Below are positions 2,305 to 48,422 of a stretch of DNA of 64,000 bases, one piece after another. A model generated the notes under the pieces. It was not told where the DNA came from and ran no database searches. It was given only the letters and a program-made list of their open reading frames with translations. Source of the stretch: an uncultured Methanosarcinales archaeon. Its GTDB lineage: Archaea; Nanobdellota; Nanobdellia; Woesearchaeales; GW2011-AR9. A program made the translations under genes and the position numbers. Where the stretch lies: NCBI GenBank assembly GCA_964510085.1, contig CAZEAB010000004.1, forward strand, positions 9,284-73,283, in the 5' to 3' direction. Positions within the stretch are counted from its first letter, which is position 1. Every line of letters starts with the position of its first letter.

Positions 2305-4266
2305 ATGCAGAAAAAGAGGTACAGTAGAGTCCTAGATAGACCTATTTTTAATAAGAGGGGTCAAGTAACTCTATTTATTATCCTTGGAATAGTTCTGCTT
2401 ATAATTCTCGTTCTCATCATACTTCTGCAGCGTGAAATAGTAACCATAACTCCAGGAAAAATAATTCCTGAAGCAAAAGATAAAATTGAAAACCAAATAA
2501 CTCTTTGTGTACAAGAAGTTGGGGAGGAAGCATTATTCAAAATTGGTCTTCAAGGGGGTTATCTTGAATTCTCAGATCAACAGCTCCGTGATGGAAATTA
2601 TGTATTACAAACACCTGTAACACCAACACCTTACTGGGCATATGGAAATACAATAGATATCCCCACATTACAATCAATCAAACAATCTGTTGATACATAT
2701 ATTGAAAACAACATAGAATCGTGCGTCTTTCCAGCAGGATTACAAGATGAAGAATTTTCATACATCTCACAGGGAACTGTAACATCGGATACAGAATTTA
2801 CCAATTCTAACGTATTGTATAACGTAGATTGGGAGATTGATGTACAAACAAAAGACGGTGAATTAGTGACAAAATTACTTCGTCATGAAACCAAATCAGA
2901 TATTAAATTTAAAGATTTATATGAAACTGCAACAAGAATAATTGAACAGGAAGTAAATGCACTTAAGTTTGAAGACATTACACAAGATCTTATTGCACTA
3001 GAACATCCAGATGTACCAGTAATGGGAATGGAAATAAGTTGTGCAGAAAAGAAATGGGCCCTCCCAACTGTACAAGAGACTCTCAAAGAATTAATCACCA
3101 CAAACATTCCTCAAATCAAGGTTTCGGGAACAGAAATAATAGACTTTCCAAAAGAGTTTCCATATTACCAGAATCATTACATCTGGGATGTTGGCGAAGA
3201 TTTTAGTAAGAAAGACGTTTCAGTAACATTCCGTTATCAAGAAAACTTTCCATTTTCATTTCAAGTAACTCCGCATGATGGTTCTTTCTTACGAAGTGGA
3301 ACACAAGGTGGTTCAGACATCTTATCGGCATTATGTGTGCAAATGTGGAAATTTACATATGATGTTTCATATCCTGTATTAATGAAAATAAAAGATGATA
3401 ACTCAGGATTTGTATTTAACACAGCATTTACAGTACATTTATTACGAAACAATCCAAGTAGGGAAAGTTTTGTTCAAGCATTAAACCCTGATTTAGTTTC
3501 AACCATTCCTGGAGACGACTTTTGCTCTAACAGACGTATTCCAATGACTATTCTAACATCTTCAGTAGTAGATAGTCCAGAAACAGGAGTTTCATTCTCT
3601 GAACCAGTTGAAGGAGTTAATGTTTCATTCACCTGTATCAAACACAAATGTGACATGGGTTCAACAGTACTTGACTTTGATAATAGAGGATACCAAGCAG
3701 GTTTTACTCGAAACTTCCCATTCTGTGTTGGTGGTATTTTACGAGCAACAAAAGAGGGTTATAAAGAATCTTGGCAACGTGTGTTAACTGAAAATTCAAA
3801 ACAAGTTGAAATAGAATTAACTCCATTACATCTCATTCCTGTGCAGAACGTAAAGATAGTTTCTCATGATGAAAAAGAAAATGGAGTTGGACCAGCAACA
3901 ACTCTTACAGAAGATGAAACTGCAATAGTAACTATAAAATCTCTCAAAAAGGATGAGAAAAACAAACCATTCCACGAATCAACAATAGTCACTTCAGCTT
4001 CAGGTTTAGATGTAGAAGGATTTAGTAACTTAGAATTATTAGCAGGAGCAGATTTCACATATGACTTTGATGTAACCGTGTTCAAGAATGATTTGTTTAT
4101 AGCAGGATACAAGGGAAACTGGACTGTCCAATGGGATGAATTGCAACCAAATTCACAGATTACAATACATACAATAGGTAAGGATATGACTCCAGAAGAA
4201 TCATTTGGATTCATTTCACAATTACATTCAAAATCACTACTGGTGCCATCACCAGAAATAAAATGA
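2305..4266 (+). CDS. large extracellular protein with type IV pilin-like (class III) signal peptide
   Basis: The N-terminus ...FNKRG|QVTLFIILGIVLLIILVLIILL fits the [KR]-G-[Q]-hydrophobic prepilin pattern. It is a paralog of the partial ORF at 63539, sharing C(V/I)(Q/E), QGGY and Y(I)(E/N)N..(E)..C blocks. Its stop overlaps the next start (ATGA at 4263-4266). Confidence 0.6.
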   Translation: MQKKRYSRVLDRPIFNKRGQVTLFIILGIVLLIILVLIILLQREIVTITPGKIIPEAKDKIENQITLCVQEVGEEALFKIGLQGGYLEFSDQQLRDGNYVLQTPVTPTPYWAYGNTIDIPTLQSIKQSVDTYIENNIESCVFPAGLQDEEFSYISQGTVTSDTEFTNSNVLYNVDWEIDVQTKDGELVTKLLRHETKSDIKFKDLYETATRIIEQEVNALKFEDITQDLIALEHPDVPVMGMEISCAEKKWALPTVQETLKELITTNIPQIKVSGTEIIDFPKEFPYYQNHYIWDVGEDFSKKDVSVTFRYQENFPFSFQVTPHDGSFLRSGTQGGSDILSALCVQMWKFTYDVSYPVLMKIKDDNSGFVFNTAFTVHLLRNNPSRESFVQALNPDLVSTIPGDDFCSNRRIPMTILTSSVVDSPETGVSFSEPVEGVNVSFTCIKHKCDMGSTVLDFDNRGYQAGFTRNFPFCVGGILRATKEGYKESWQRVLTENSKQVEIELTPLHLIPVQNVKIVSHDEKENGVGPATTLTEDETAIVTIKSLKKDEKNKPFHESTIVTSASGLDVEGFSNLELLAGADFTYDFDVTVFKNDLFIAGYKGNWTVQWDELQPNSQITIHTIGKDMTPEESFGFISQLHSKSLLVPSPEIK

Positions 4267-7200
4267 GTAACATAAGAAAAATATCTGTACTTCTTGTTAT
4301 CTTACTATTTGTTAATCTACCTCTTGTAAGTGCGTTACAATTCTCTGGAGTAGATGCAAAAGTAACCGAAAACTCTGCAGTAATTTCGTGGCAAACTGAT
4401 GAACCTGCAGATAGTTTCGTACGATATGGAACAGATAAAACACAGATGACCCCAATAGGAGATTCTGCTGAAGTTACCAGCCATTCACTTTCGATTACTG
4501 GCTTGCAACCTGAAACAACATATGTCTATGAAGTTGAAAGTAATAACGAGATTGACAACAACAATGGCTCTCTTTATTCATTCACAACTCCTACGCCAGA
4601 TACAACACCTCCAACACTTGATGTGAATATCTCCACAAAAATAAAAGGAACAACTTTAGAAGCAACAGGAACAACAGAAGCAGGAATAGAAGTAATTGTG
4701 TTACTCGGAACTGTTGAAGTAAAGAGAATAACAACAGATGAAACAGGAACATTTTCAGTAAAATTTACAATAGCACCAGACGTATTAAACCCAGTTACAT
4801 TTATTGCTAAAGATCCTTCCGGGAACACGGTTTCAAAATCATACAGTGTTTTATCAGATACAACAAGACCAAAAATAACATTACAGAAACTTCCTGACAT
4901 TATTGGAGATAAACAATTCTCATTAAATGGTACAATCTCAGAAAACAGTTCAATTGAAGTGTTATTAAACAATAAAAGTATTCATTCCTCTATTGGAACA
5001 TCTTTTGAAGCAAAATTAAACGTTAATGAAGGAACAAACAATCTTGTTGTAACAGCAACAGATTCAGCTGGTTGGGTTACGTCTCTTACAAAAAAACTTA
5101 ATTCAGACACAGAAGCACCAACAGTAAAGTTTGATGTGTCTAAAGGAACAGAATATTATGAATTTCAAGCAGAATCTTCAATTACCGGAACTACAGAACC
5201 AGGAGCGACTGTATATCTCTATGTCTTTGTACCACAAACGCAGGAAACACGATTACGGTTTGATAGAGCTCTTCAAAAAGTCACAGCAAATTCAGAAGGA
5301 AAGTTTATATTTGAAGAAGTAGATTTCTCTGGATTAGGAACGTCAACAATAGACACATTATCACCAACACATCTTCCTCCTGGCTTAGAGGGAATAATTC
5401 TTCCAAAGTTAGATAGAATTCAGCAAGCTCAACGAGTAAATTATAGAGTATATGTACTAGCGGAAGATAAATCCGGTAAAGTTGGCCATGCAACTAAAAC
5501 AGTATATGTAAACAGTTGTTCTTCTGGAGATTATGCATTTGATGTATTCGTTCCTCCACAATTTCCTGTACAACCATTAAAATTAAACCCGCTTCTTATG
5601 AAAGAAGGAAGAGAATCAATGTCTGTAGTGTATAACTTAACCTACAGAGGAGCAGCTCTACCAACAATAAACACTAATACTGGCGATACTGAAAACCCAT
5701 ACAGGATCTCAAATGTTAAATTTGAAAAAGCATGTACGAAAGCGAATGCCGATAAAGACGATTTTAATATTGGATGTAAATTAGCCCCTCGATTACTTAA
5801 TGGAAAGTCAATAAAATCAGATAAGACAATGTGGTTCTTAGAAACACCATTACTTCGCACGGAAGATTTCTCAGAGATTACAGATGATGTTCTCACAGAA
5901 TTTACAAAACGGCAACTTAAAATCCCGTTAAAGATAGTAGTTAATTATCAAGAACGAAATGTAGATGGAAGTTGGCAAGCAAAAACTCAAGTTGAATGTA
6001 GAGAAATAGGAAGTTTTGTTGATATCCCTATAGACTCTTCTTTATTAGTTCCAGATTCCCTTGCAGAATACACTGTAAGTGCAACAAATGAAACGTTACA
6101 TCAAATAAATCGTGTAAAGAAAATTTTAGATCCGCTTGTTAAATGGACTGGCGTAAGTTGTTATGGTTCTTGGTTGACGAAAGGGGTCTTAAAAATTAAC
6201 AGAGTTGTCGCTTCGTGGTATGAATCGTTCACACAAAAAGGAAGCAAAGACAAACCCGCATGTCCAACGCCAAGTAAACAACGAGAGATGTATCTTAAAT
6301 CTACATTAGATGACTGGAAGAAATTGCAATCAAAACATCCAAATGCTGCAGCAAGTATCCCAATAGATTTCAATAATGCTGAAGAACTTAAAAAGAAAAC
6401 ATTAGATGAAGCGTGTCCTTCAACAGCAGCTGCATGGGAACGAGAGGCATTCTTTGACAAATTATACAAAACAACCTGTGACAGATTCTTCTGTAGAAGT
6501 TCTCCATCAAGATGGACTGAAACAGAAACCGAAGAAGATGTAAAGAAAGTTGTATTAGATCAACAACAATGTGCTGCGTCAAGTAATTGTATCACCATGA
6601 CTCCAGTAGAGAATTGTCAGAATGAATTGAAAAAGAATCCTGCTGCGGGTGAAATTGTCCGAGTTCGTCAAGAGAAGGGATCATTTACCTGTTGGAGAGA
6701 CAGAGAAGGAACATTATATTATCATTGTACTGAAAATGATGCAGATGTAGAGTGTAAGAAACGTGCAGAATCACTTGAAGAGAAAGGTGTATGGATTTTA
6801 AAACCAGTATTATCTATTGGCAAGAGTAAACCAAAAATACTTGCACTTAAAGGAGAGTTAAATAACGTTGCATGCGTTGCTCAAGATAGAAAATGTAGTT
6901 CTGTATGTAAACGTAAGCAGGGATATGTTTCATCTAAATCTGGGTTCAAACAATCGGGAACAAAATATGTCGCTGGCGGTTCTTGTTACAAAGAAAATGC
7001 ACAAGGGAAATTAGAAGGTGTCAATGGAGTAAAAACCCACGCAAGTGCATTTACAGCAGGATATACACAAGATTGTTTCATTGCAGAAGATACGGGAGAT
7101 AAATACCAATGTGTGTGTGAACAGGATCAAGACATATTGAAAAAACAATCAAAAAAGGGTAGCAGAGAAGCACTACGAATGGAAAAAGATGTAGCAGAAC

Positions 7201-9722
7201 CGTGGATGTATAGACAAGAAAAAGTATACAAGGAAAGTAACGGCGATAAAGGAACGTATTACCCTGAATGGAGATATTATGGTGGAAGAGATTTCACAGC
7301 AGCATTCGGACTAAATCATGTAGCAGATCTTGTTGGAGAAAAAACAAACGCAAGAATAAACCCACGAGATTATGTTGGTGCATGGCAAACAATGTGTCTT
7401 CCACGAATTAACAACCAACTTACTGTAGCGCAAAGTGTGTTAACACAATTTCAAAACTGCGTAATACAAGCACAGAATTCAGAATTTCAAGATGCAGGTA
7501 TATGTAAAACATTCTTTGCAACAAACGTCTGTGGATGGTTATACAAGGGTATTTCCGCATTTACAAACCAATGTTCTCCATTTACATTTGATGACGTTGA
7601 AGGATTTGAAGAATTAGGTGACGGAGGAATTTCTGCATTTTCAAGAGCATTTAAGCAGGGAGTTCCTGAAGCACTAACAAGTAGCGTGAATGAATTAAAA
7701 GATGATTATGGAGCTCATGCACAAGAACAATTTAAAGTAGGAACACAAGGAGTTGCACAATCAATGTGTCTCTTCGCATTTGGTTACGATTTCCCAACAG
7801 ATTTTGATTTCATTACAGATGCAGCATATTCAACTCCAATGAAAACATCTGTGTCACCATTAATTGCAAACAGAGAATTTACTTCATTTGATCCAATAAG
7901 AGGGGTTCCAGAATTTACATATAATCTAGGAACTCTTGTAATACCAGGATGTCCTTTACGAGGATATAAAAGCTCTTTTGTCTGTATAGGAACAAACGAT
8001 TTAGGAAAACCAGGTATAGATCAAAGCTGTAGTGGACAGGGATGTGATTGTTTACAAGCATCAAATCAGAACTCTCCATTTGAAGCAGAGAAAACAAAAG
8101 TTATTCCAAGTGGAACAAAGAATGGAGTATTCCCACAATTTCAAGCAATTGATATTCCATATAAGAACCCGTTACAAGTTGAAAGCAATTTCAGATATGA
8201 CCACGTTAAATTAGAACTATACCTCGAATCTGGTGTTGACCCTAAAGAATGTTTTGATGAATCTGTTGCAACAAATGTCGGTGGAGAGATATACTTCCCA
8301 CTTTCGCATGTGGAAGGAAGAGAATTCGCACAATGTCAAGTACATGGGTCAACAGGGAGATATATCTGTCCTGCATTAAGTCAAATCTTCCAGCAAGGTG
8401 GCGCGTTCTTAGAACATCCATTTGTACAATGTTATGATAAGAGGGAAGATGAATTTGTAGATTGTCAACAACCAAATGTAATCCTTGTTGATGAAGAAAT
8501 AGTTGTGAAACCATATCTCTCAGCAATACAATCAGATTCTTGTTTAGTAATATCAGATAATAAAGGAAATGTAAAACATAACATCCTACTCCCTCAAAGT
8601 CCTGTACCAATCGCTCCTAGAATTAGTTTAGGAAAAGCAACCGCAAACTTACTTACTGGAGGACAAGTAGGAACTATAAGGAAAGTAGATTCACAAAGCG
8701 TGAGTGGCTGTGGAGGAAATGGAGGCCAAATAAATCAAATTGGATTCTCACAAACTTCAACAAAATCAAGAACGATGCCATTTGAATTTACAAGAATAAG
8801 TGGCAAATACCAATTACAAGTTCCTCATGGTATTACAGTAATACCAGGAACAGATAGTTTTGATATTAATACTAACAGATATTTAACAAAGAAAGGTGAG
8901 ATTACACTGTCTACGTCAGATGTTAACAAAGCAACATTTAGTGTTGATGGATATAGATTTAATCAAGTTCTTGGAACACCTTCACAATCTCATGGGAAAT
9001 GTGTTTATAGGACAGTTCCTTCTTATGGGGGGAAGATAAGTAAGGTTGGTGTTGGCTCAACCAGAATAAAGATTGAATTGAAACAACCAGGACCAGGAAA
9101 TAGTTGTTGGAAATCAACAAAACTTGTTGATAAAAATCCTCTTGGAAAGAACGTACATTCACAATCAATCAGGATTCAATCAGCGAAAATGGAATCTCAA
9201 TCGGTAATAACATTACATCAAGATTTCATGAATGGCAATTATCATCTCGTTGCATCAAAAGCACAAGATATTATTAAACAAGAAGAAAGTACAATGGAAG
9301 ATGCACTTGCATTATATTATTGGAGTGCAAGTTTAGTGATGCAAGGTATTGGAAATCATAACTCAGAAATTGTAAGTTTATTGAAGATATTCTTTAAACG
9401 AGAATTACAGGGGAAGAAATTATCAAATTATCCTCAAGGAGTTGTTGGTTTTGATGAGTATAAGAAAATTAGAACATATCTTTGTTTAGTAGATCAACAA
9501 GTCGGTTCACAGAATCAAAATCTATGTAAAGGCGTTGTGAGTTCTGGAACCCTATGTGCAAGTTCAACTGGATTAAAACCAGGATTCAAAAAACCAACAG
9601 GATGGAATTCATATGCATGTAAAGATTCAAAAGCGAAGGGATGTTTAGCATATACGCAATATGTTCCAAAAGGTGTAACAGGGAGGGGTTGTCCAAGTAG
9701 TCAACTATGTTGTCCAACATGA
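4263..9722 (+). CDS. giant secreted cysteine-rich protein (1819 aa; FN3-like and Ig-like N-terminal region)
   Basis: Sec-type signal MSNIRKISVLLVILLFVNLPLVSA, then an FN3-like segment (SAVISWQTDEPADSFVRYG...TTYVYEV) and Ig-like repeats. There are no Cys in the first ~415 aa and roughly 50 Cys (hand count) in the remaining ~1400 aa, ending CPSSQLCCPT. I recognise no catalytic motif. Confidence 0.7.
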   Translation: MSNIRKISVLLVILLFVNLPLVSALQFSGVDAKVTENSAVISWQTDEPADSFVRYGTDKTQMTPIGDSAEVTSHSLSITGLQPETTYVYEVESNNEIDNNNGSLYSFTTPTPDTTPPTLDVNISTKIKGTTLEATGTTEAGIEVIVLLGTVEVKRITTDETGTFSVKFTIAPDVLNPVTFIAKDPSGNTVSKSYSVLSDTTRPKITLQKLPDIIGDKQFSLNGTISENSSIEVLLNNKSIHSSIGTSFEAKLNVNEGTNNLVVTATDSAGWVTSLTKKLNSDTEAPTVKFDVSKGTEYYEFQAESSITGTTEPGATVYLYVFVPQTQETRLRFDRALQKVTANSEGKFIFEEVDFSGLGTSTIDTLSPTHLPPGLEGIILPKLDRIQQAQRVNYRVYVLAEDKSGKVGHATKTVYVNSCSSGDYAFDVFVPPQFPVQPLKLNPLLMKEGRESMSVVYNLTYRGAALPTINTNTGDTENPYRISNVKFEKACTKANADKDDFNIGCKLAPRLLNGKSIKSDKTMWFLETPLLRTEDFSEITDDVLTEFTKRQLKIPLKIVVNYQERNVDGSWQAKTQVECREIGSFVDIPIDSSLLVPDSLAEYTVSATNETLHQINRVKKILDPLVKWTGVSCYGSWLTKGVLKINRVVASWYESFTQKGSKDKPACPTPSKQREMYLKSTLDDWKKLQSKHPNAAASIPIDFNNAEELKKKTLDEACPSTAAAWEREAFFDKLYKTTCDRFFCRSSPSRWTETETEEDVKKVVLDQQQCAASSNCITMTPVENCQNELKKNPAAGEIVRVRQEKGSFTCWRDREGTLYYHCTENDADVECKKRAESLEEKGVWILKPVLSIGKSKPKILALKGELNNVACVAQDRKCSSVCKRKQGYVSSKSGFKQSGTKYVAGGSCYKENAQGKLEGVNGVKTHASAFTAGYTQDCFIAEDTGDKYQCVCEQDQDILKKQSKKGSREALRMEKDVAEPWMYRQEKVYKESNGDKGTYYPEWRYYGGRDFTAAFGLNHVADLVGEKTNARINPRDYVGAWQTMCLPRINNQLTVAQSVLTQFQNCVIQAQNSEFQDAGICKTFFATNVCGWLYKGISAFTNQCSPFTFDDVEGFEELGDGGISAFSRAFKQGVPEALTSSVNELKDDYGAHAQEQFKVGTQGVAQSMCLFAFGYDFPTDFDFITDAAYSTPMKTSVSPLIANREFTSFDPIRGVPEFTYNLGTLVIPGCPLRGYKSSFVCIGTNDLGKPGIDQSCSGQGCDCLQASNQNSPFEAEKTKVIPSGTKNGVFPQFQAIDIPYKNPLQVESNFRYDHVKLELYLESGVDPKECFDESVATNVGGEIYFPLSHVEGREFAQCQVHGSTGRYICPALSQIFQQGGAFLEHPFVQCYDKREDEFVDCQQPNVILVDEEIVVKPYLSAIQSDSCLVISDNKGNVKHNILLPQSPVPIAPRISLGKATANLLTGGQVGTIRKVDSQSVSGCGGNGGQINQIGFSQTSTKSRTMPFEFTRISGKYQLQVPHGITVIPGTDSFDINTNRYLTKKGEITLSTSDVNKATFSVDGYRFNQVLGTPSQSHGKCVYRTVPSYGGKISKVGVGSTRIKIELKQPGPGNSCWKSTKLVDKNPLGKNVHSQSIRIQSAKMESQSVITLHQDFMNGNYHLVASKAQDIIKQEESTMEDALALYYWSASLVMQGIGNHNSEIVSLLKIFFKRELQGKKLSNYPQGVVGFDEYKKIRTYLCLVDQQVGSQNQNLCKGVVSSGTLCASSTGLKPGFKKPTGWNSYACKDSKAKGCLAYTQYVPKGVTGRGCPSSQLCCPT

Positions 9723-10243
9723 AACAAGCAAGTGTAATGGTAAAATTAGTAGTATTCTTGATTGTTATAGTGGTAACAAGTTCAATTGTGTTGTTATTAG
9801 TTCGCACAGGAGTAGTAGATCCAACGGGAGAACAACAAGATGTATTAAATGTTGATTTTATTCCTATTGCAACTGGTTCGTTGAGTATTCGTAGCGTTTC
9901 ATTATGTGGTTCACTAATTGAGTTTGAATGTCTTGAAACAGAAGAGTTTTCAGTTGGACAAAAGGTTAATGTGTTGTTCTTAGTTGAGACAGATGTAGAT
10001 GCTGGCAGAGTGTTGTTAATTAGAAGTTATACGGTTAAAGATTCAGCTGGAAATGTTGTATTTGCATCTTCAGGAAATAATAATGTAGTCTTTGAAGAAA
10101 CAAGTGAAAAATCAGTAGAATTAATTGGCTTTTCAGATTCATTTACTCCAGGCGGAGTTGGTGAGTTTGTATTGGAAGCTATTGTTGAAAATCCAATCTT
10201 GGGAAAGAAAGTATCTGCAAGTAAGAGGTTTGTGATAGGATGA
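9707..10243 (+). CDS. single-pass membrane protein with beta-rich ectodomain
   Basis: N-terminal TM KLVVFLIVIVVTSSIVLLLV. The likely true start is ATG 9719, which forms an ATGA overlap with the upstream stop at 9720-9722. Its own stop overlaps the next start at 10240-10243. Confidence 0.5.
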   Translation: MLSNMKQASVMVKLVVFLIVIVVTSSIVLLLVRTGVVDPTGEQQDVLNVDFIPIATGSLSIRSVSLCGSLIEFECLETEEFSVGQKVNVLFLVETDVDAGRVLLIRSYTVKDSAGNVVFASSGNNNVVFEETSEKSVELIGFSDSFTPGGVGEFVLEAIVENPILGKKVSASKRFVIG

Positions 10244-13200
10244 AATGGGCTGTGTTAGTGGTGATGTTAGTTCTTGCTAGTTCTATGGTTCTTGCTGAAT
10301 CTTTTGGTGGTCCTGGTGGAACAGAGTTTGTATTGGATTGTGGTGAAGGTTACTTAATTAATGGAATTGGTGGAAAAGAAGGAGCGTTAATAGATCAGTT
10401 ATTTGTCAATTGTATTAATCCGTTTAAAGATGAAGGTCAACGGAGAAGTATAAAAGAAGCAGGAGGAAAAGGTGGAGAAGATTTTGCATTTTTTTGTCAT
10501 GAAAGGAAATATGTTTCAAAAATCAATATGCACAAAGCAGGAGATTTTATTTCAGGATTACAAGCAGTATGTACTGATGGAACAAAATCAAAAATATTTG
10601 GAACGGAACAAAAAGGATTTGATTCTTTATTTTGTGATGCAAAGAATCCAGCTTTATCAACAATAGCTGGGAAAGCAGGAAATTTTTTAGATTCAATTAG
10701 TTTTGATAGATCTGTATGCCATATAATCCCAACAGCAGAAGATATTCTCAATGCGAAAATACCTCAAGAAGTAAGAAATGCCGAAGCTCCAATTGGGTTA
10801 CCAGAAATTGGAACAGAAACTCCTACAGAAGAAAATGGTGTGTTTACATGGAATAAAGAAGGAGTAGAGATTGTATATGATGGAAATAATATTGTATGGA
10901 AGAATTCTCTTGGAGAATGGGTTCTTGACATTAATTCTAAATCTAAAAGCTTTCAATCGACAACTCAATCAGTTAACTATTGGTCATTAGACAAAGTAAT
11001 TAATAGTGTTAACGTACCTTCCGGATTTCCAACACCGGATAGGAATGCAGATTGGAATATAGAGAAAGAAAGAAAACATATAAAAATTAATGTTGATGAA
11101 TGGGAAGTAACGTATTTTGTAGATGGAAGCAAGCAATGGAGGCGTGCAGATATAGCATACTCTGTATGGGCCGAGAGTAGCATTGGAAAATTCTTCCTTG
11201 GAAAACGTGAAGATTGGGGAGCATTAAAAGATACAGAAACAGGACCACCATTAGGTGTGCCAGGTTATTCAGGAAATCCAGCAAGTTCTATCTCCATATT
11301 TGATGGAGTATATGATTATTGGGATGTAAATGAATGGAGAATCTTTAAGAAACAAAACGAGAATGAATTTATATGGCAACGTGGTGGAAGGTGGTATTAT
11401 TATGATAATGGAAAACAAGTAAGCCAACCATATGCATCAGAATGGCCTTCTCCACATAGTTTCTCTCCTACATTTGAAACAAGTGGAAGTTCTTGGGTAT
11501 TAAGTAATAATGCTGCTAAGAAAATACAAGACCCATCACTTCAATGTGTTGGTAAATCTATTGGAATAACTGGAGCGTCAAATACCGTTGGTTCTCAAAG
11601 TTGGGCAAATAAACATTTACAAAAATTATGCGGTTCGAAATCAAAAATAAAAGTAAAAGCTACAGGTGGTTGGGGTCCTACAAAACAAAAAGCATTCTTA
11701 ACAAAAGATTTTCTTACACATAATAACGCCCCTTTAGATATTTTGGTAATTAATCCTTCCGGAAATTCTATTACTGGAGGCTCATGTAAAGATATGTACA
11801 AAGATCTAGATACAATGATTAACACCGCATTTGAAAATAATGTGAAGAAAGTTGCTGTAATGACTATTAGCCCTCGTTCAAACTGGCAGAAGAATTGTGT
11901 TGTAAAATATAATAACGGTTTACAAAAATTTATCACAGAGAATATTCAATCTTCACGAGCAGCAAAAGTACAGGTAATACATATTGAAAATGCGCTTATA
12001 ACTCCAGATAAACCAACCCATTGTGCATATTGTAACAAAGGGAATCAACGACATTGGAATTCAGAAGGACATTCACGAGTTGCAGCAGCAGTATATCAAA
12101 ACTTATTTGCTGCGCCAGGAGATTATACCCCAGAACAGATTACCAATTTACGTCGACAATTCGGATTAACATACTCACAGAAGGATGGTGCTGCTGTTTC
12201 AACACCATCTCCACCTATTTTTGACCAGAATTGTTTAGATTTGAATACATGTAAAGAAATTGATGAAGCATGGGGAAAATTATCTAAAGGACTTGGTGTA
12301 GGTGGAAAACCAGCTGAAAATGTATGGGTGAGAGATGCTGGCTGGAAGAAGTTTGAGGATGTGTATAGAAAAGTAACTGTTGAGAGTAGTAAAGGTTCTC
12401 AAAAAAGTCCAGTACCTGTATCAAATGCAATTGATATTTCCCATCATCAGGGTAAGATTGATTGGAAGAAGGTTAAAGCAGCAGGAATAGATTATGCATT
12501 CATTAAAGCATCTGAACATACAACATTTGTTGATAAAAGATTTAAAGAAAATGTAAAGAACGCACAAGCTGCAGGTGTTGAAGTTCTCGGATTATATCAT
12601 TTTGCACAACCAATGAAAAATAGTGCAGTAGAAGGAGCACAACATTTTGTAGAAACAACGAAGGGATACCTTGGAAATGGTATTAGGCCAGTATTAGATG
12701 TGGAAGCAGGAAAAGAATTAGGGAAGAAAGGCGTTTCAGATTGGGTTCTTACGTGGTTACAACATGTTGAAAAGAAAACAGGTCAGAAACCAATAATATA
12801 TGGAGGCAATTACGCTCGTAATTATATGGATGAGAGAATCGTCGATAAATATGATTTGTGGTATGCAAGTTGGACACATAATCCTAACAAAAAGCCAAGA
12901 AGTCCGAGTCCATGGAGTGGATATAAATACTGGCAATATAGTGATAGGGGAAGTGTAGATGGTATTTCTGGAGATGTAGATTTAGATGTTGTAAAAGTAA
13001 CATCTGGTCTTATTGCAGGAATTACAGATGAACAGATAGAGGCACATCAACCTAAAGTTATAGAAGAGAAAGTTGTTAAATATGATACGTTTGAAGTAAA
13101 AACAACATTTAGAGGATTCTTAGATGGAAGTTCTGGAAATGATAGACAAGAATACAAATATTTTATCTTACATGATGGTTCTGCAAATAAAATCCCAGAA

Positions 13201-13707
13201 TGTAATCTTGCAGTTGCAAAAACCGTTGGGTTATGGAAAGCTCGTGCAGTACTTCAAAATTCAAAAGTATCTTCTCATTATTACATATGTCATGACGGAA
13301 CAATTCACCAAATATTAGCAGATCAACGTGTAGGATATCATGCTGGCTGTCCATATAAAGGAAGTCCAAAAGAGTTATGTCCAATCTCTAATGTTAATAG
13401 AAGGTCAATTGGAATAGATTTCCAGAACTATGGTGGAGCAGTGAACTCATATACTGGTTCTAAGTATACGCAAGCGCAATATGATGCAGCTAATAACTTA
13501 ATGGCCTTCCTTGGTAATCTTCACAATATCCCTGTAGATGATGAACATATTCTAGGACATTTTGAAGTTACCAAAACAGTAAAGACAGCAGCCCAATTAA
13601 ACAAAAATGACCCCTATCCTCCATTTGATTGGTCTAAGATCGCAGGATTGAAGTATGACCATCAGCAGAAGAATGGTCCTAAGATGGATCCATTAGTTAC
13701 AGGATAA
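10240..13707 (+). CDS. secreted multidomain peptidoglycan hydrolase (beta-prism lectin-like + SGNH esterase-like + GH25 muramidase + amidase_2)
   Basis: - Signal peptide MKWAVLVVMLVLASSMVLA.
- About 10297-10725: three GGxGGxxF...I.G..G..ID/IS repeats (jacalin-like beta-prism).
- About 11545-12100: SGNH-like blocks (GASNTVG, PSGNS, HWNSEGH).
- About 12424-12995: GH25 signature (DISHHQGKIDW...FIKASEH...AGVEVLGLYHF...DVE).
- About 13150-13635: amidase_2/AmpD-like (SSHYYICHDGTIHQ...GYHAG...SIGIDFQN...ILGHFEV...KNDPYPPFDW). Confidence 0.8.
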   Translation: MKWAVLVVMLVLASSMVLAESFGGPGGTEFVLDCGEGYLINGIGGKEGALIDQLFVNCINPFKDEGQRRSIKEAGGKGGEDFAFFCHERKYVSKINMHKAGDFISGLQAVCTDGTKSKIFGTEQKGFDSLFCDAKNPALSTIAGKAGNFLDSISFDRSVCHIIPTAEDILNAKIPQEVRNAEAPIGLPEIGTETPTEENGVFTWNKEGVEIVYDGNNIVWKNSLGEWVLDINSKSKSFQSTTQSVNYWSLDKVINSVNVPSGFPTPDRNADWNIEKERKHIKINVDEWEVTYFVDGSKQWRRADIAYSVWAESSIGKFFLGKREDWGALKDTETGPPLGVPGYSGNPASSISIFDGVYDYWDVNEWRIFKKQNENEFIWQRGGRWYYYDNGKQVSQPYASEWPSPHSFSPTFETSGSSWVLSNNAAKKIQDPSLQCVGKSIGITGASNTVGSQSWANKHLQKLCGSKSKIKVKATGGWGPTKQKAFLTKDFLTHNNAPLDILVINPSGNSITGGSCKDMYKDLDTMINTAFENNVKKVAVMTISPRSNWQKNCVVKYNNGLQKFITENIQSSRAAKVQVIHIENALITPDKPTHCAYCNKGNQRHWNSEGHSRVAAAVYQNLFAAPGDYTPEQITNLRRQFGLTYSQKDGAAVSTPSPPIFDQNCLDLNTCKEIDEAWGKLSKGLGVGGKPAENVWVRDAGWKKFEDVYRKVTVESSKGSQKSPVPVSNAIDISHHQGKIDWKKVKAAGIDYAFIKASEHTTFVDKRFKENVKNAQAAGVEVLGLYHFAQPMKNSAVEGAQHFVETTKGYLGNGIRPVLDVEAGKELGKKGVSDWVLTWLQHVEKKTGQKPIIYGGNYARNYMDERIVDKYDLWYASWTHNPNKKPRSPSPWSGYKYWQYSDRGSVDGISGDVDLDVVKVTSGLIAGITDEQIEAHQPKVIEEKVVKYDTFEVKTTFRGFLDGSSGNDRQEYKYFILHDGSANKIPECNLAVAKTVGLWKARAVLQNSKVSSHYYICHDGTIHQILADQRVGYHAGCPYKGSPKELCPISNVNRRSIGIDFQNYGGAVNSYTGSKYTQAQYDAANNLMAFLGNLHNIPVDDEHILGHFEVTKTVKTAAQLNKNDPYPPFDWSKIAGLKYDHQQKNGPKMDPLVTG

Positions 13708-13757: not shown

Positions 13758-13885
13758 GGCCCCGTAGCATAGTCTGGTGGTGCGCACGACTGATATTGAC
13801 TATGCAGTTATCGTGAGGTCCGGAGTTCAAATATTAGCGTTTGATAATAATTTCGAACGTTAGTGAGAAAGTCTCCGCGGGGCCA
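13758..13885 (+). tRNA. tRNA-Ile(GAU) with two inferred introns (canonical 37/38, 14 nt; T-arm, 40 nt)
   Basis: Perfect 7-bp acceptor GGCCCCG (13758-13764) / CGGGGCC (13878-13884) with discriminator A13885. D arm is GCAU-AGUCUGGUG-GUGC. Anticodon stem is CACGA (13785-13789) / UCGUG (13811-13815), with loop CUGAUA + 14-nt insert (13796-13809) + A. Variable region is AGGUC. T stem CGGAG (13821-13825) and loop UUCAAAU are followed by a 40-nt insert (13833-13872) before CUCCG (13873-13877). A T-run follows. Confidence 0.7.
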
Positions 13886-14753: not shown

Positions 14754-15770
14754 ATGCTAACACAGGGGGTGTGGTTTACTATGAATAAATATATAATTAC
14801 AATTTTGGCTTTAGCATTAATTTTAGTAGGATGTACTGAATATCAGAAGTACGATGCAACAGAAGAAGATTTAAGTTTAATTGATGAAATAGCAAAAATA
14901 GAAGATGAATTAGCGAATACAGATAATCCTGATTTTGAATTATTAGAAGAAGTAGAAGAAACAGTTGAAGAAGAAGTTGTTCTACCAAATCCGAAAGAAG
15001 AACAAGTTCTTATGGAAGATGCGTTAACCGTTTCAGTAAAAGAAAATGAAGCAGTGAAATTAAATGTAAAAGTAACAGATCCGGATGAAGACCCAGTAAC
15101 CTATACATTTACCGCACCATTAGATGAAAATGGTGAATGGAAGACAAACTACGGAGATGCAGGCGAATATCTTGTTACAATCACAGCAACTGACGGAAAA
15201 TTAACTACAGAAAAGAGAGTCAACATTGTAGTTGAAAGAGTTAATGTACCTCCAGTAATTGCAGAAGTAGCAGATATTGTCGTTAAAGAAGGAGAAACAG
15301 TTACATTTGAACCTACTGTAACAGATCCAAACAACGACGCAGTATCAGTAAATGTCGCAGAACCTCTTACAAGCGGCACATTTGTTACAGATCATACCAG
15401 TGCAGGTGAATATGCAATAACAGTACTTGCAACAGACGGCGAGTTAGATTCAGAAAAATCATTCAAACTAACTGTGCATGACGTAAATGAAAAACCAATC
15501 ATTACCGGTGTTGAAGATATCACCATAAAAGAAGGTGAAGTAATTACTATTAAACCAGTAGTCTCAGATTTAGATGAAGACCCATTAGTAATTACAATAA
15601 GTCAACCAGTTGGAGATGACGGAATTTGGGAAACGTCTTACACTGACCATGGTGAGTATAAGATTAGCATCGCTGCAGACGATGGCAAAGACAGAGTTAC
15701 TCAACAAATTACTGTAGTAATTGAAGATGTGAACAAAGCTCCAGAAATTGTGGACATAAGTCTACAATAA
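14754..15770 (+). CDS. surface lipoprotein with cadherin-like/Ig-like repeats
   Basis: The start is probably ATG 14781, preceded by the SD-like GGGGGTG, which gives MNKYIITILALALILVGC (lipobox-like). After an acidic linker come three ~85-aa repeats of the type V(K/T)EGE.V...P.V.DPD.D...Y....PL...G.W.T.Y.DAGEY.V...A.DG with VN.PP(V/I)I linkers. Confidence 0.65.
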   Translation: MLTQGVWFTMNKYIITILALALILVGCTEYQKYDATEEDLSLIDEIAKIEDELANTDNPDFELLEEVEETVEEEVVLPNPKEEQVLMEDALTVSVKENEAVKLNVKVTDPDEDPVTYTFTAPLDENGEWKTNYGDAGEYLVTITATDGKLTTEKRVNIVVERVNVPPVIAEVADIVVKEGETVTFEPTVTDPNNDAVSVNVAEPLTSGTFVTDHTSAGEYAITVLATDGELDSEKSFKLTVHDVNEKPIITGVEDITIKEGEVITIKPVVSDLDEDPLVITISQPVGDDGIWETSYTDHGEYKISIAADDGKDRVTQQITVVIEDVNKAPEIVDISLQ

Positions 15771-15787
15771 TTTTTTTCTTTTTTACA

Positions 15788-18136: not shown

Positions 18137-19657
18137 ATGGATTCAGTTCTTCAATTAGCAACAGATACTATTAACATAGATAAACAAGCAATCGTCTTCG
18201 TAGCAAGTAGAGCTTCAGCAGAAAAGACAGCATTAGACATTTCTAAATTAACTTCTTTATCACATCCAGAACTAGAAGAAGGTGTTCTAAAAGCAATACC
18301 ATCTCCAACGAAACAATGTGAAAAATTAAGTAAATGTATCAAGAAAGGAATAGCATTCCATCATTCGGGATTAACAAATAAACAAAAAGAAATCATTGAA
18401 GACGAATTCAAAACGGGAAAAATCAAAATAATTTGTGCCACTCCAACTCTTGCTGCGGGATTAAGTTTACCCGTATTTAGAGTGATCATTAAGTCATTAA
18501 AACGATTCTCAGGAAAATGGGGAATGGATTGGATTCCCGTTCTTGAATATCTTCAAATGGCGGGAAGAGCAGGAAGACCGGAATACGAAAAATTTGGAGA
18601 ATCAATAGTAGTAGCAAAATCTACTGCAGAAAGAGATGAAATACATGAACGATATATCCTTGGAGAACCAGAAGAGATCTACTCCAAATTAGCAGCAGAA
18701 CCAGTCTTACGGACTTATCTTTTATCACTTATATCGTCTGGCCTGATTCGGGATGAGAAGACGATGAAAGAATTCTTTGGAGAAACATTCTGGGCACATC
18801 AATATGGTGACATGGAGAAATTAACTTCTATTATGGATAGAATGATATCTCTGTTAAATGGATGGAAATTTATTGAAGCAGGAGACACCTCTGATTTTGT
18901 TGCTGCTAATACCGTAAAAGATGAGAGAATGAGACCAACACCAATAGGAAGAAGAATATCAGAACTTTATTTAGACCCATTAACAGCCAACTATTTGTTA
19001 TCTTGTTTGGAAAATTTTGATGAAAGCAAAAATGTATTCTCACTATTACAAATGATTTCACATACGCTAGAAATGAGACCTTTATTACGAACGAAACAAA
19101 AAGAGATGGACTTTGTACATAATGAACTGGGAAAGAGGTATGAATTTTTATTAGAAGAAGAACCATCAAGTTTTGACATGGAATATGGAGAATTTGTAAA
19201 CTCCATAAAAACAGCATTATTCTTCGAAGAATGGATATCAGAAAAGGGAGAAGACTTTCTTTTTGAAACATTTGGAGCAAGACCAGGAGAAATAAGAGCA
19301 AAAGTAGAAAGTGCTAACTGGCTAATTTATTCTGCAGAAGAATTGTCTAAAGTCACTCGAAACTTACATGCTGTTAAAGAATTACGAAAATTACGATTAC
19401 GAATTAAACATGGAGTTCACGAAGAATTGTTGCCGTTACTTCGGTTAAAAGGAATTGGTAAAAAGAGAGCACGTAAAATGTTTACAAATGGAATTAAAGA
19501 TATTGGGGGGGTTAAGGGAGTAGATTTTGTTACATTAGCTCAACTCGTTGGTGGAAAAGTAGCTCAATCCATCAAAGAACAAGTAGGAATTAAAGTAGAA
19601 GAAGTCCCTTCTGGTAAGAGGAAAGGGCAGTTGAGTTTAGGGAAGTTTAATAAGTAA
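18137..19657 (+). CDS. Ski2/Hel308-type helicase, C-terminal portion only (RecA2 + winged helix + ratchet + HhH)
   Basis: Motifs AIVFVASR, GIAFHHSGL, ATPTLAAGLSLP and QMAGRAGRP (helicase motifs IV-VI), plus a C-terminal HhH-like LRLKGIGKKRARKM. No Walker A or DEAH-containing RecA1 domain is present in this ORF or upstream of it. Confidence 0.7.
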   Translation: MDSVLQLATDTINIDKQAIVFVASRASAEKTALDISKLTSLSHPELEEGVLKAIPSPTKQCEKLSKCIKKGIAFHHSGLTNKQKEIIEDEFKTGKIKIICATPTLAAGLSLPVFRVIIKSLKRFSGKWGMDWIPVLEYLQMAGRAGRPEYEKFGESIVVAKSTAERDEIHERYILGEPEEIYSKLAAEPVLRTYLLSLISSGLIRDEKTMKEFFGETFWAHQYGDMEKLTSIMDRMISLLNGWKFIEAGDTSDFVAANTVKDERMRPTPIGRRISELYLDPLTANYLLSCLENFDESKNVFSLLQMISHTLEMRPLLRTKQKEMDFVHNELGKRYEFLLEEEPSSFDMEYGEFVNSIKTALFFEEWISEKGEDFLFETFGARPGEIRAKVESANWLIYSAEELSKVTRNLHAVKELRKLRLRIKHGVHEELLPLLRLKGIGKKRARKMFTNGIKDIGGVKGVDFVTLAQLVGGKVAQSIKEQVGIKVEEVPSGKRKGQLSLGKFNK

Positions 19658-24324: not shown

Positions 24325-24597
24325 ATGGAACTACGAGAAGAGAAGCTTTCTAGAGCAATTAGCGCATTTTCTAGACGACAGATTCTTAGGCTTCTCGCTG
24401 ACGGGGACATGACTGTAAAAGAAATCGCCACCTCCACAAAGATGAGCATGTCCCTTGCTTCTCGTCATCTTTCCATGCTTAGAGATTTAGGAATTTTAGA
24501 CGTAAAAAGAAAACATCCATTCAAATTCTATTCATTAAAAATCAAAGAAATTAAAGGATTATTAGACATCTATGATAAGGTGATACAGAAAATATGA
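24325..24597 (+). CDS. ArsR/SmtB-family winged-helix transcriptional regulator
   Basis: 90 aa. RRQILRLLADGDMTVKEIATSTKMSMSLASRHLSMLRDLGIL is a typical ArsR HTH. Its stop overlaps the next start (ATGA at 24594-24597). Confidence 0.65.
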   Translation: MELREEKLSRAISAFSRRQILRLLADGDMTVKEIATSTKMSMSLASRHLSMLRDLGILDVKRKHPFKFYSLKIKEIKGLLDIYDKVIQKI

Positions 24598-47048: not shown

Positions 47049-47078
47049 ATAAGGAGAAGATTTTGAAATAATTATTGT

Positions 47079-47111
47079 GGGGCACGCCCGAATCGTACAG
47101 GCCACCCACAA
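47079..47111 (+). ncRNA. Copy D (5' half only) of the recurrent structured motif
   Basis: GGGGCACGCCCGAAUCGUAC is identical to the first 20 nt of copy B, then diverges (AGGCCACCCACAA). An alternative outer stem is UUGUGGG/CCCACAA. It ends 83 nt upstream of the glycogen synthase start. Confidence 0.35.
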
Positions 47112-48396: not shown

Positions 48397-48422
48397 GAAG
48401 TCTATCCAGAATGAAATAAAAA

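What the first reader, a model, noticed from the sequence alone, without database searches (positions are those of the whole stretch)
10240..13707. Single 1155-aa polypeptide combining three different peptidoglycan-cleaving activities with a lectin-like head
Seen in sequence:
- Signal peptide.
- Three ~45-aa GGxGGxxF... subrepeats, as in a jacalin-like beta-prism (10297-10725).
- A Trp-rich repeat region.
- SGNH-like blocks (11545-12100).
- A complete GH25 signature (12424-12995).
- An AmpD-like amidase_2 signature ending KNDPYPPFDW (13150-13635).

Established knowledge: an SGNH esterase could de-O-acetylate murein, GH25 cuts the glycan strand, and amidase_2 removes the stem peptide.

Inference: together these would fully dismantle murein, including O-acetylated (lysozyme-resistant) murein. 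The lectin head could target a host surface glycan. Peptidoglycan hydrolase domains have, to my recollection, been noted in some DPANN genomes, but I cannot verify whether this fused architecture is known.
Basis: partly seen in the sequence, partly recalled or inferred. Interest (0 to 1): 0.75.

Follow-up and report, generated by a model that had tools for sequence, protein, structure and literature searches.

The report
Secreted multi-enzyme bacterial-wall degrader of a DPANN archaeon
A tiny symbiotic-type archaeon (Woesearchaeota-like) encodes one large secreted protein that joins a sugar-binding head to an esterase, a lysozyme and an amidase, all aimed at bacterial cell wall; this adds an unusually elaborate example to the recently recognised idea that archaea attack or feed on bacteria.

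Summary
- GH25 muramidase (E 1e-43; D732/D820/E822 intact) and AmpD-like Amidase_2 (E 2e-18) are robust.
- The N-terminal domain passes Pfam's Jacalin threshold when scanned alone.
- The SGNH call fails Pfam for this protein. It is confirmed by a 22-member family profile (all 28 PDB hits are SGNH), by an AlphaFold model with Foldseek, and by invariant Ser447, Asn509 and His605.
- The Trp-rich segment is an orphan. No repeat and no fold match could be shown.

The host is a Woesearchaeota-like DPANN archaeon. The gene is chromosomal, syntenic in an orthologue (79 % identity, dN/dS 0.17) and not phage-derived.

New context: the SGNH domain plus a conserved Cys-Cys/Trp connector forms a DPANN-associated module. 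In 17 of 18 multidomain relatives it is fused to different wall-lytic domains, often lytic transglycosylases, which supports a de-O-acetylase role.

The complete five-module architecture occurs only in this lineage. Archaeal peptidoglycan hydrolases and multi-catalytic lysins are already published, so this is a new variant of a known kind.

The parts
10240..13707 (+). Complete ORF, 1155 aa, secreted multidomain wall hydrolase
   Evidence: ORF list. The identical protein occurs on 5 independent contigs with the same neighbours. An orthologue at 79 % identity is syntenic. dN/dS is 0.17 overall.
10240..10296 (+). Sec-type signal peptide (aa 1-19, predicted cleavage VLA|E)
   Evidence: It is the only hydrophobic segment of the protein, with K2 and small residues at -3/-1. 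This is read from the sequence; no dedicated predictor was run.
10297..10719 (+). Jacalin-like beta-prism lectin domain with three Cys-paired sub-repeats (aa 20-160)
   Evidence: Pfam Jacalin scores 24.5 bits against a cutoff of 22 when scanned alone. More than 100 homologues were found, and 9 of 10 tested pass the Jacalin threshold. The three sub-repeats align, and GxxxD motifs lie at aa 48 and 147. dN/dS 0.27.
10825..11529 (+). Orphan Trp-rich beta-hairpin region (aa 196-430), function unknown, candidate target-binding module
   Evidence: 6.5 % Trp. No homologue outside its own cluster among 1.84 billion representative proteins. No Pfam hit. The AlphaFold model has pLDDT 50 and shows three clusters of short hairpins. 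No fold match was found. Repeats are not significant. dN/dS 0.24 shows it is constrained.
11542..12114 (+). SGNH/GDSL-fold esterase domain (aa 435-625): Ser447, Gly477, Asn509, His605; acid position Asn602
   Evidence: G445, A446, S447, N448, S507, N509 and H605 are invariant in 22 family members. All 28 PDB hits of the family profile are SGNH proteins. The core is modelled at pLDDT ~80-90. The top Foldseek hits are SGNH esterases at E down to 3e-7. Relatives hit Lipase_GDSL_2.
12217..12378 (+). Conserved connector element C-x5-C-[KR]-E-I-D-x-x-W ... VW ... W (aa 660-713), unknown function
   Evidence: C665, C671, I674, D675 and W678 are invariant in 13 relatives. It has the lowest dN/dS of the protein (0.08 for aa 626-728). 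No Pfam or PDB match was found. The model is low-confidence and helical.
12424..12993 (+). GH25 (Chalaropsis-type) muramidase domain (aa 729-918): Asp732, Asp820, Glu822
   Evidence: Pfam E 1e-43. PDB hits include 1JFX (1.7e-23) and 4KRU, with the catalytic residues aligned. The nearest sequences are Bacillota phage and plasmid GH25 domains at 41-44 % identity.
13150..13653 (+). AmpD/AmpDh2-like Amidase_2 domain (aa ~971-1138): His978 (by motif), His1107, Asp1124; Asp1060 in place of the general-base Glu
   Evidence: Pfam E 2e-18, or 1.5e-19 when scanned alone. NCBIfam AmpD gives E 1.3e-9, below its cutoff. It aligns with AmpDh2 4BJ4 (E 7e-4) and AmpD 1J3G, and with a Streptomyces amidase.
2305..10243 (+). 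Three upstream genes with overlapping stop/start codons (653 aa with an N-terminal TM segment; 1819-aa Cys-rich secreted giant with fn3/Ig domains; 178 aa with an N-terminal TM segment); probable co-transcribed partners
   Evidence: Coordinates and junction sequences. Pfam results. The same gene order is found on the orthologue's contig.

Best explanation
The gene encodes a Sec-secreted, modular enzyme that a Woesearchaeota-like DPANN archaeon uses on bacterial peptidoglycan; the archaeon is assumed to make none itself.

Proposed mechanism:
1. The N-terminal jacalin-like beta-prism, and probably the fast-evolving orphan Trp-rich beta region, dock the protein on a glycan of the bacterial envelope. 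They take the place of the canonical LysM, SH3 or PG-binding domains, which are absent. (Inferred.)
2. The SGNH domain (Ser447/His605, oxyanion Gly477/Asn509) removes O-acetyl groups from MurNAc or another wall glycan. (Inferred from fold, conserved residues and fusion partners.)
3. The GH25 domain hydrolyses the MurNAc-beta-1,4-GlcNAc bond. (Homology strong, catalytic residues intact.)
4. The AmpD-like Zn amidase strips stem peptides from MurNAc. (Homology strong; Glu to Asp at the general-base position.)

The net effect is local breaching or solubilisation of the sacculus. This could serve attachment to or penetration of a bacterial host or prey, or harvesting of amino sugars and peptides.

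The protein is one member of a DPANN-associated toolkit in which the same SGNH + connector module is combined with many alternative wall-lytic domains.
For: Domains and residues.

Secretion.

Archaeal DPANN host:
- Archaeal markers are present in the window: PAC2, Hel308 domain 4, NOG1 and GH57.
- The nearest NOG1 homologues are Woesearchaeota MAGs at 44-58 % identity.
- A two-intron tRNA lies next to the gene.

Genuine, maintained gene:
- The identical protein occurs on 5 contigs from different assemblies, and a syntenic orthologue exists.
- All domains are under purifying selection. The catalytic ones are strongest (dN/dS 0.08-0.15) and the binding-type N-terminal modules evolve faster (0.24-0.27).

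SGNH module tied to peptidoglycan:
- 17 of 18 multidomain relatives carry a wall-lytic partner: lambda-type lytic transglycosylase in 7, plus SLT, M23, VanY, M74, glucosaminidase, Phage_lysozyme2 or SleB-like domains.
- Lytic transglycosylases need a free C6-OH (established knowledge; PMC6627197 abstract).
- Relatives are labelled Woesearchaeota or Nanoarchaeota, or sit in archaeal contigs.

Precedent: archaeal peptidoglycan hydrolases kill bacteria and are prominent in Nanoarchaeota (PMC12352652). An archaeal GH25 is bactericidal (PMC4241558, as cited in PMC12352652). Woesearchaeota carry GH23 transglycosylases (PMC9723730).
Against: - No activity has been measured.
- The SGNH domain is below the Pfam threshold in this protein, and the triad acid is Asn602 (Asp in the orthologue).
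- The SGNH domain is not specifically close to Ape1. Its nearest structures are generic acyl/acetyl-esterases and CE3 enzymes, with PatB only at rank 43.
- GH25 enzymes do not need de-O-acetylation (PMC7954357), so the benefit of the esterase in this particular fusion is unclear.
- The amidase has Asp1060 where AmpD has the catalytic Glu, and its first Zn ligand is assigned by motif only.
- There is no recognised cell-wall-binding domain.
- Sugar binding by the jacalin domain is untested.
- The target organism is unknown.
Confidence: 0.7

Rival explanations
1. Same enzyme, different biology. It is a scavenging enzyme that digests free peptidoglycan debris (necromass) for carbon and nitrogen, rather than a weapon or penetration device used on living bacteria.
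For: The protein is secreted and has no anchor. The window encodes sugar-handling enzymes: glucokinase, GH15, GH57 and GT4. Vigneron et al. discuss DPANN recycling of microbial biomass (PMC9723730).
Against: The gene is co-transcribed with giant surface proteins and surrounded by adhesin-like genes (PKD, Big_9, cadherin-like, Laminin_G_3) that suggest cell-cell contact. No MurNAc or GlcNAc catabolic genes were seen in the 64 kb, though that is a small sample. The sequence cannot separate the two roles.
Confidence: 0.25
2. The SGNH domain does not act on peptidoglycan. It de-acylates another envelope polymer (teichoic acid, capsule, EPS, S-layer glycan) to give the lytic domains access, or it is an acyl-transferase like PatB/OatA.
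For: The closest structures are generic acetyl and carbohydrate esterases (CE3, CE2). The PatB transferases also appear among the hits. GH25 does not need de-O-acetylated substrate (PMC7954357).
Against: The module is consistently fused with peptidoglycan-specific lytic domains, especially lytic transglycosylases, which are blocked by 6-O-acetyl groups. A transferase role has no obvious acetyl donor outside the cell.
Confidence: 0.25
3. Prophage or virus endolysin remnant, or a recent wholesale transfer of a bacterial or phage lysin gene.
For: The GH25 domain is most similar to Bacillota phage and plasmid GH25 domains at 41-44 % identity. A Streptomyces plasmid has adjacent GH25 and amidase genes in the same order.
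Against: None of 50,697 phage records or 72,556 plasmids covers more than the single domains, and none is fused. IMG/VR holds no relative. No holin or other phage genes are nearby, and the neighbours are archaeal housekeeping and surface genes that are syntenic in the orthologue. GC content equals that of the flanks. The SGNH module and connector are DPANN-associated. A signal peptide replaces holin dependence.
Confidence: 0.03
4. Assembly chimera or bacterial contamination within an archaeal bin.
For: Peptidoglycan hydrolase domains are typically bacterial.
Against: The same gene with the same archaeal neighbours was recovered in at least 5 contigs from independent ENA, JGI and Logan assemblies, including an 80-kb scaffold. 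A diverged orthologue was recovered in 2 further assemblies. The start codon overlaps the upstream archaeal-operon gene.
Confidence: 0.01
5. The target is an archaeal host wall (pseudomurein of methanogens) rather than bacterial murein.
For: Woesearchaeota have been proposed to associate with methanogens (own knowledge, not checked here).
Against: GH25 and AmpD-type amidases act on MurNAc-containing murein. Pseudomurein lacks MurNAc and beta-1,4 linkages and is lysozyme-resistant (established knowledge). Strock et al. find that archaeal peptidoglycan hydrolases are almost absent from pseudomurein producers.
Confidence: 0.03

Closest known systems
Archaeal modular peptidoglycan hydrolases (Strock et al. 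2025, PLoS Biol, PMC12352652), including Nanoarchaeota/Woesearchaeales LysM+SLT proteins
   Same: These are secreted archaeal proteins with bacterial-type wall-lytic catalytic domains. Nanoarchaeota are especially rich in them, Sec signal peptides are common, and they are interpreted as anti-bacterial.
   Different: Their definition requires a Pfam cell-wall-binding domain, and this protein has none (jacalin and orphan region instead), so their screen would miss it. The listed architectures have one catalytic domain plus a binding domain. No GH25+Amidase_2 combination was found in the parts of their tables that are held, and no SGNH domain.
Aciduliprofundum boonei GH25 muramidase acquired by HGT (Metcalf et al. 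2014, eLife, PMC4241558)
   Same: It is a GH25 lysozyme in an archaeon that is most similar to Bacillota sequences, and it has antibacterial function.
   Different: It comes from a different archaeal lineage (Aciduliprofundum rather than DPANN). Its domain architecture was not examined here. In the present protein GH25 is one of five modules, and the host is a DPANN archaeon.
Multi-catalytic phage endolysins and bacterial autolysins (e.g. [quoted passage not shown]
   Same: One polypeptide combines a glycosidase and an amidase or peptidase with binding modules.
   Different: They are of phage or bacterial origin and are holin-dependent or autolytic. They use canonical binding domains. No SGNH esterase or jacalin head is reported. 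No record with GH25 fused to Amidase_2 was detected.
Ape1-type O-acetylpeptidoglycan esterases and PatB/OatA SGNH proteins of bacteria
   Same: They share the SGNH fold and the Ser-His(-Asp) mechanism. They are functionally coupled to lytic transglycosylases, which need a de-O-acetylated substrate.
   Different: No specific sequence or structural affinity to Ape1 was seen, and PatB appears only as a weak hit. Here the esterase is covalently fused to the lytic domains and is archaeal. The block I motif is G-A-S-N-T, and the block V acid is variable.
Woesearchaeota 'large lytic murein transglycosylase' genes (GH23; Castelle 2015 AR20 as cited in Vigneron 2022, PMC9723730)
   Same: They come from the same phylum-level lineage, are large secreted wall-degrading proteins, and carry a predatory or 'vampiristic' interpretation.
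   Different: The catalytic families differ (GH23 versus GH25 + Amidase_2 + SGNH). The SGNH-connector module was not described there.

Membership tests
Glycoside hydrolase family 25 (Pfam PF01183) | Profile match above the curated threshold over the whole domain | tested here: met
   150.2 bits against a cutoff of 27, covering 1-180 of 180 profile positions.
Glycoside hydrolase family 25 (Pfam PF01183) | Catalytic N-terminal Asp and D-x-E motif (Cellosyl Asp9, Asp98, Glu100; numbering from own knowledge) | tested here: met
   AIDISH aligns with GIDVSH, and VLDVE with VLDIE, in the 1JFX alignment. D732, D820 and E822 are identical in the orthologue.
Glycoside hydrolase family 25 (Pfam PF01183) | Muramidase activity on peptidoglycan | not testable with these tools
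   Needs a biochemical assay.
Amidase_2 / AmpD-type N-acetylmuramoyl-L-alanine amidase (PF01510) | Profile match above the curated threshold | tested here: met
   67.3 bits against a cutoff of 26. Only profile positions 36-130 of 131 are matched. The NCBIfam AmpD equivalog scores 37.7 against a cutoff of 143, so this is not an AmpD orthologue.
Amidase_2 / AmpD-type N-acetylmuramoyl-L-alanine amidase (PF01510) | Zn ligands His / His / Asp (or Cys) | tested here: inconclusive
   H1107 and D1124 align with the AmpDh2 ligand positions. The first His (H978 in FILHDGS) lies outside every alignment and is assigned by motif only.
Amidase_2 / AmpD-type N-acetylmuramoyl-L-alanine amidase (PF01510) | General-base Glu in the S-I-G-I-E motif (AmpD Glu116; own knowledge) | tested here: not met
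   The motif is SIGID, with Asp1060, in both orthologues. The change is conservative and its effect on activity is unknown.
SGNH/GDSL hydrolase superfamily | Pfam family match above the threshold for this protein | tested here: not met
   Lipase_GDSL scores 14.6 bits against a cutoff of 23.6. One relative (P0022) passes Lipase_GDSL_2 with 39.6 against 32.9.
SGNH/GDSL hydrolase superfamily | Conserved blocks I (Ser), II (Gly), III (Asn), V (His) | tested here: met
   S447, N509 and H605 are invariant in 22 sequences. G477 is in the conserved GG.
SGNH/GDSL hydrolase superfamily | Block V Asp three residues before the His | tested here: not met
   The residue is Asn602 here. It is Asp in the orthologue and in most relatives. 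Ser-His dyad SGNH enzymes exist (own knowledge).
SGNH/GDSL hydrolase superfamily | Three-layer alpha/beta/alpha SGNH fold | tested here: met
   In the AlphaFold model the core has pLDDT ~80-90. The top 44 Foldseek matches are SGNH-fold proteins or designed scaffolds, with E down to 3e-7 and target-normalised TM 0.62-0.78 for most (two SGNH-containing targets longer than the query score 0.37 and 0.46). All 28 PDB hits of the family profile are SGNH proteins.
O-acetylpeptidoglycan esterase (Ape-type) | Specific homology to Ape1, or demonstrated de-O-acetylation of MurNAc | tested here: not met
   Ape1 is not among the sequence or structure hits. The function is inferred only from fusion partners. 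Activity cannot be tested here.
Jacalin-like lectin (PF01419) | Profile match above the threshold over the full domain | tested here: met
   24.5 bits against a cutoff of 22 when scanned alone, covering 2-134 of 136 positions. In the whole-protein context it scores 18 bits. 9 of 10 homologues pass the threshold.
Jacalin-like lectin (PF01419) | Sugar-binding loops (GG loop and GxxxD; own knowledge) and carbohydrate binding | tested here: inconclusive
   GGxGG lies at aa 23 and 75, and GxxxD at aa 48 and 147. Their equivalence to the jacalin site was not established structurally, and binding cannot be tested here.
Phage endolysin / prophage module | Phage genomic context (holin, structural genes) or a close phage homologue of the whole protein | tested here: not met
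   The maximum coverage by any phage record is 28 %, from the GH25 domain only. IMG/VR holds no relative. The neighbours are archaeal.
Modular archaeal PGH sensu Strock et al. 2025 | [quoted passage not shown] | tested here: not met
   Catalytic domains are present. No LysM, SH3, PG_binding, SPOR or choline-binding hit was found.

The most novel reading that the evidence does not exclude
The SGNH + Cys-Cys/Trp connector module defines an undescribed, DPANN-wide combinatorial toolkit of secreted bacterial-wall-degrading enzymes. In it, a peptidoglycan de-O-acetylase is hard-wired to interchangeable lytic domains and to non-canonical targeting heads (jacalin-like prism, orphan Trp-rich domain). 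This protein is its most elaborate member. It would indicate that some Woesearchaeota are specialised to breach O-acetylated (lysozyme-resistant) walls of bacterial hosts or prey.
Probability: 0.35. Interest if true: 0.7.

Novelty: new variant of a known kind. Interest (0 to 1): 0.5.

Why it matters
DPANN archaea are mostly uncultured, and for Woesearchaeota the partners and mode of interaction are largely guesswork. A secreted enzyme that can only be useful on bacterial murein is direct genomic evidence for an archaeon-bacterium interaction.

The modular SGNH-lytic family found here gives a searchable marker for such interactions. Published screens would miss it because they require canonical wall-binding domains.

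Practically, the protein and its relatives are candidate antibacterial enzymes that carry a built-in de-O-acetylase, a feature relevant to lysozyme-resistant pathogens. The jacalin head, the orphan Trp-rich region and the connector are candidate new targeting modules.

Tried and rejected
- Word-indexed search of the whole protein: only the orthologue and one GH25-only protein.
- GTDB genome scan, IMG/VR scan and JGI metagenome scan with the orthologue alignment: nothing new.
- Trp-rich region:
  - Pfam found nothing at E <= 10.
  - The self-repeat test was not significant.
  - The AlphaFold model was poor, built from a 2-sequence alignment.
  - Foldseek hits were meaningless.
  - A by-eye resemblance of GGRWYYYDNGKQV to choline-binding/CW_binding repeats could not be substantiated and is not claimed.
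- Connector profile against PDB and Pfam: nothing.
- The TP-84 endolysin appeared to extend into the amidase region. This was rejected: it is GH25 + 3 LysM, and the extension is alignment noise.
- A by-eye similarity between the jacalin head and the N-termini of P0013 and P0015 was not detected by phmmer and is not claimed.
- The sigma-70 promoter scan was uninformative, with fewer sites than in shuffles. The host is archaeal, so it is not applicable.
- The terminator-like hairpin at 13871-13883 is the 3' end of a tRNA.

Full report
**Observation.** The window contains an ATG-initiated ORF at 10240-13707 (+) encoding 1155 aa. Its start overlaps the stop codon of the upstream 178-aa gene (ATGA). 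That gene in turn overlaps the 1819-aa gene before it, which overlaps a 653-aa gene, so four genes form a probable operon. The only hydrophobic segment is the N-terminus, MKWAVLVVMLVLASSMVLA|E, a typical Sec signal.

**Robust catalytic domains.**
- GH25: Pfam Glyco_hydro_25 matches aa 731-909 at E 1e-43. The domain aligns with Cellosyl (1JFX, E 1.7e-23) and other solved GH25 enzymes. The N-terminal Asp (D732) and the D-x-E pair (D820, E822) are in place and identical in the orthologue.
- Amidase_2: Pfam matches aa 998-1126 at E 2e-18. The closest solved relatives are Pseudomonas AmpDh2 and AmpD. KNDPYPPFDW aligns with KVDPGPLFPW, which gives Zn ligands H1107 and D1124.
- Two caveats on the amidase. 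The first His ligand (H978, FILHDGS) lies outside every alignment and is assigned by motif only. The AmpD general-base Glu (SIGIE) is Asp1060 (SIGID) in both orthologues.

**Lectin head.** Jacalin (PF01419) scores 18 bits in the whole protein. It scores 24.5 bits (cutoff 22) over 2-134 of 136 profile positions when the N-terminal 177 aa are scanned alone. An exhaustive HMMER search of 1.84 billion representatives with aa 1-720 returned more than 100 proteins matching aa ~19-155, and nine of ten tested pass the Jacalin threshold. The three sub-repeats align, each with a Cys pair, and GxxxD motifs occur at aa 48 and 147. Sugar binding itself is untested.

**SGNH domain.**
- For this protein alone the SGNH claim would fail. 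There is only a 14.6-bit Lipase_GDSL hit.
- The exhaustive search found about 25 protein clusters sharing aa ~435-713. Most of these hit Lipase_GDSL_2, and P0022 is above threshold.
- In a 22-sequence alignment, G445-A446-S447-N448 (block I), S507/N509 (block III) and H605 (block V, D-x-x-H-W) are invariant.
- The profile finds only SGNH/GDSL structures in the PDB (28 of 28, best E 9.6e-5, including PatB).
Its top Foldseek matches are SGNH esterases (E down to 3e-7; CE3, PAF-AH, TesA, PatB).
The triad acid is Asn602 here, whereas it is Asp in the orthologue.

**Orphan parts.**
- The Trp-rich region (aa ~196-430, 6.5 % W) has no homologue outside its own cluster, no Pfam hit and no significant internal repeat.
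- Its model is low-confidence and shows three clusters of short beta-hairpins. It has no fold match.
- A ~55-aa element after the SGNH domain, C-x5-C-[KR]-E-I-D-x-x-W...VW...W (aa 660-713), is conserved in the relatives. It sits in the most constrained segment of the protein (dN/dS 0.08), yet matches nothing known.

**Host and authenticity.**
- Neighbouring genes are archaeal: PAC2, Hel308 domain 4, NOG1-type GTPase and GH57. GC is uniform at about 34-37 %.
- The NOG1 GTPase is closest (44-58 %) to Woesearchaeota MAGs.
- The identical protein occurs on five contigs from independent ENA, JGI and Logan assemblies, including an 80-kb scaffold. A 79 %-identical orthologue (P0001) lies in the same gene order on two further contigs.
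- Nei-Gojobori dN/dS is 0.17 overall. By domain it is 0.08-0.15 for SGNH, connector, GH25 and amidase, and 0.24-0.27 for the jacalin and Trp-rich parts. That pattern is expected if the N-terminal modules track variable targets.
- No relative exists in 185,579 GTDB species genomes, IMG/VR, 50,697 phage records (maximum 28 % coverage, GH25 only) or 72,556 plasmids.
- The prophage and chimera explanations are therefore rejected.

**Family context, the most informative new result.**
- The SGNH + connector module is repeatedly fused to different wall-lytic domains. Seven relatives carry a lambda-R-type lytic transglycosylase. P0004's C-terminus matches 1AM7/3D3D at E 9e-6, and phmmer finds six more.
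- Other partners are SLT, Peptidase_M23, VanY, M74, glucosaminidase, Phage_lysozyme2 and SleB-like Hydrolase_2.
- Altogether 17 of 18 multidomain members have such a partner. About half of these partner assignments rest on hits below Pfam's curated cutoffs (E 2e-5 to 4e-3) and one on visual similarity, so the count is indicative rather than exact.
- Members are labelled Woesearchaeota or Nanoarchaeota by NCBI. Two standalone members lie in archaeal DPANN-like contigs.
- Lytic transglycosylases require a free MurNAc C6-OH, and in bacteria Ape-type SGNH esterases provide it. This association is good indirect evidence that the module de-O-acetylates peptidoglycan.
- For the present fusion the benefit is less obvious, because GH25 enzymes already cleave 6-O-acetylated substrate (PMC7954357 abstract).
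- A Streptomyces plasmid encodes separate, adjacent GH25 and amidase genes in the same order. The GH25 domain is nearest to Bacillota phage and plasmid sequences. This is consistent with acquisition from bacteria followed by fusion in the archaeal lineage.

**Comparison with the literature.**
- Strock et al. 2025 (PMC12352652) showed that about 5 % of archaeal genomes encode modular peptidoglycan hydrolases. These are prominent in Nanoarchaeota, often Sec-secreted, and two were shown to kill bacteria.
- Their definition needs a canonical wall-binding domain, which this protein lacks. No GH25+Amidase_2 entry was found in the parts of their tables that are held.
- Vigneron et al. 2022 (PMC9723730) and Castelle 2015 (as cited there) reported GH23 transglycosylases in Woesearchaeota and proposed predation.
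- Metcalf et al. 2014 documented a bactericidal archaeal GH25.
- Phage surveys list bi- and multi-catalytic lysins (PMC13284279), but none with SGNH.
- No paper linking DPANN and SGNH esterases in this sense was found.

**Verdict.** The protein most likely is a secreted, lectin-targeted enzyme that de-acetylates, cuts the glycan of, and strips peptides from bacterial murein. It is a new, lineage-restricted variant within a known kind (archaeal peptidoglycan hydrolases and multi-catalytic lysins). It also exposes an undescribed DPANN SGNH-connector fusion family. Interest is moderate (0.5). The concept is published, but the architecture, the non-canonical targeting modules and the family-wide esterase coupling are new and experimentally tractable.

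Noticed in passing
window 13758-13885 (+): A tRNA-Ile(GAT) with two introns lies here: a canonical 14-nt intron and a 39-nt insertion in the T-loop. ARAGORN and Rfam miss it, and ARAGORN calls it after in-silico excision. The orthologous contig L001 has the same tRNA at the same place with an intact T-arm and a different, 21-nt canonical intron. The 'terminator' at 13871-13883 is its 3' end.
   Followed up: yes
window 1-64000: ARAGORN finds no tRNA, and Rfam finds nothing at gathering thresholds, in the whole 64 kb. Given the hidden tRNA-Ile, other multi-intron or split tRNAs may be present and undetected.
   Followed up: no
window 2305-10243 (+): Three genes upstream overlap stop/start with each other and with the hydrolase gene. 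They encode a 653-aa protein with an N-terminal TM segment and no Pfam hit, a 1819-aa secreted giant with fn3/Ig-like N-terminal domains and a large Cys-rich (50 Cys) uncharacterised remainder, and a 178-aa protein with an N-terminal TM segment. The order is conserved on the orthologue's contig. They may form a surface complex that works with the hydrolase.
   Followed up: partly
window 14754-18097 (+) and 24594-31262 (+): This is a dense cluster of large secreted adhesin-like proteins. The 338-aa and 769-aa proteins carry PKD, Big_9 and cadherin-like repeats. The 2222-aa protein has three Laminin_G_3 (ConA-like lectin) domains plus Ig-like domains and a C-terminal hydrophobic segment. This is consistent with a cell-contact lifestyle.
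   Followed up: no
window 18137-19657 (+): This Hel308-type helicase ORF (506 aa) has Helicase_C, HTH_61, archaeal helicase domain 4 and HHH_5, but no N-terminal DEAD/RecA1 domain. It may be a split or truncated gene.
   Followed up: no
proteins P0024, P0036, P0057, P0101, P0156, P0158, P0159 (relatives, not in the window): A subset of the SGNH-connector-lytic proteins ends in an FGE-sulfatase (SUMF1/EgtB-like, PF03781) domain. Others begin with metallophosphoesterase or endonuclease/exonuclease/phosphatase domains. The role of these extra domains in wall-lytic proteins is unexplained.
   Followed up: no
L028 2276-3836 (Streptomyces sp. NBC_00316 plasmid NZ_CP108024.1): Separate, adjacent genes for a GH25 lysozyme and a MurNAc-L-Ala amidase occur in the same order as the two C-terminal domains of the archaeal protein, next to an IS1380 transposase. 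This is a possible unfused counterpart of the fusion.
   Followed up: partly
window 45054-51853 (+): A glycogen/starch-type gene set is present: GH15 glucoamylase-like, GT4/GT5 glycogen-synthase-like, GH57 and glucokinase. It is followed by SufBD and a cysteine desulfurase. This is ordinary DPANN carbohydrate metabolism, noted only as context.
   Followed up: no
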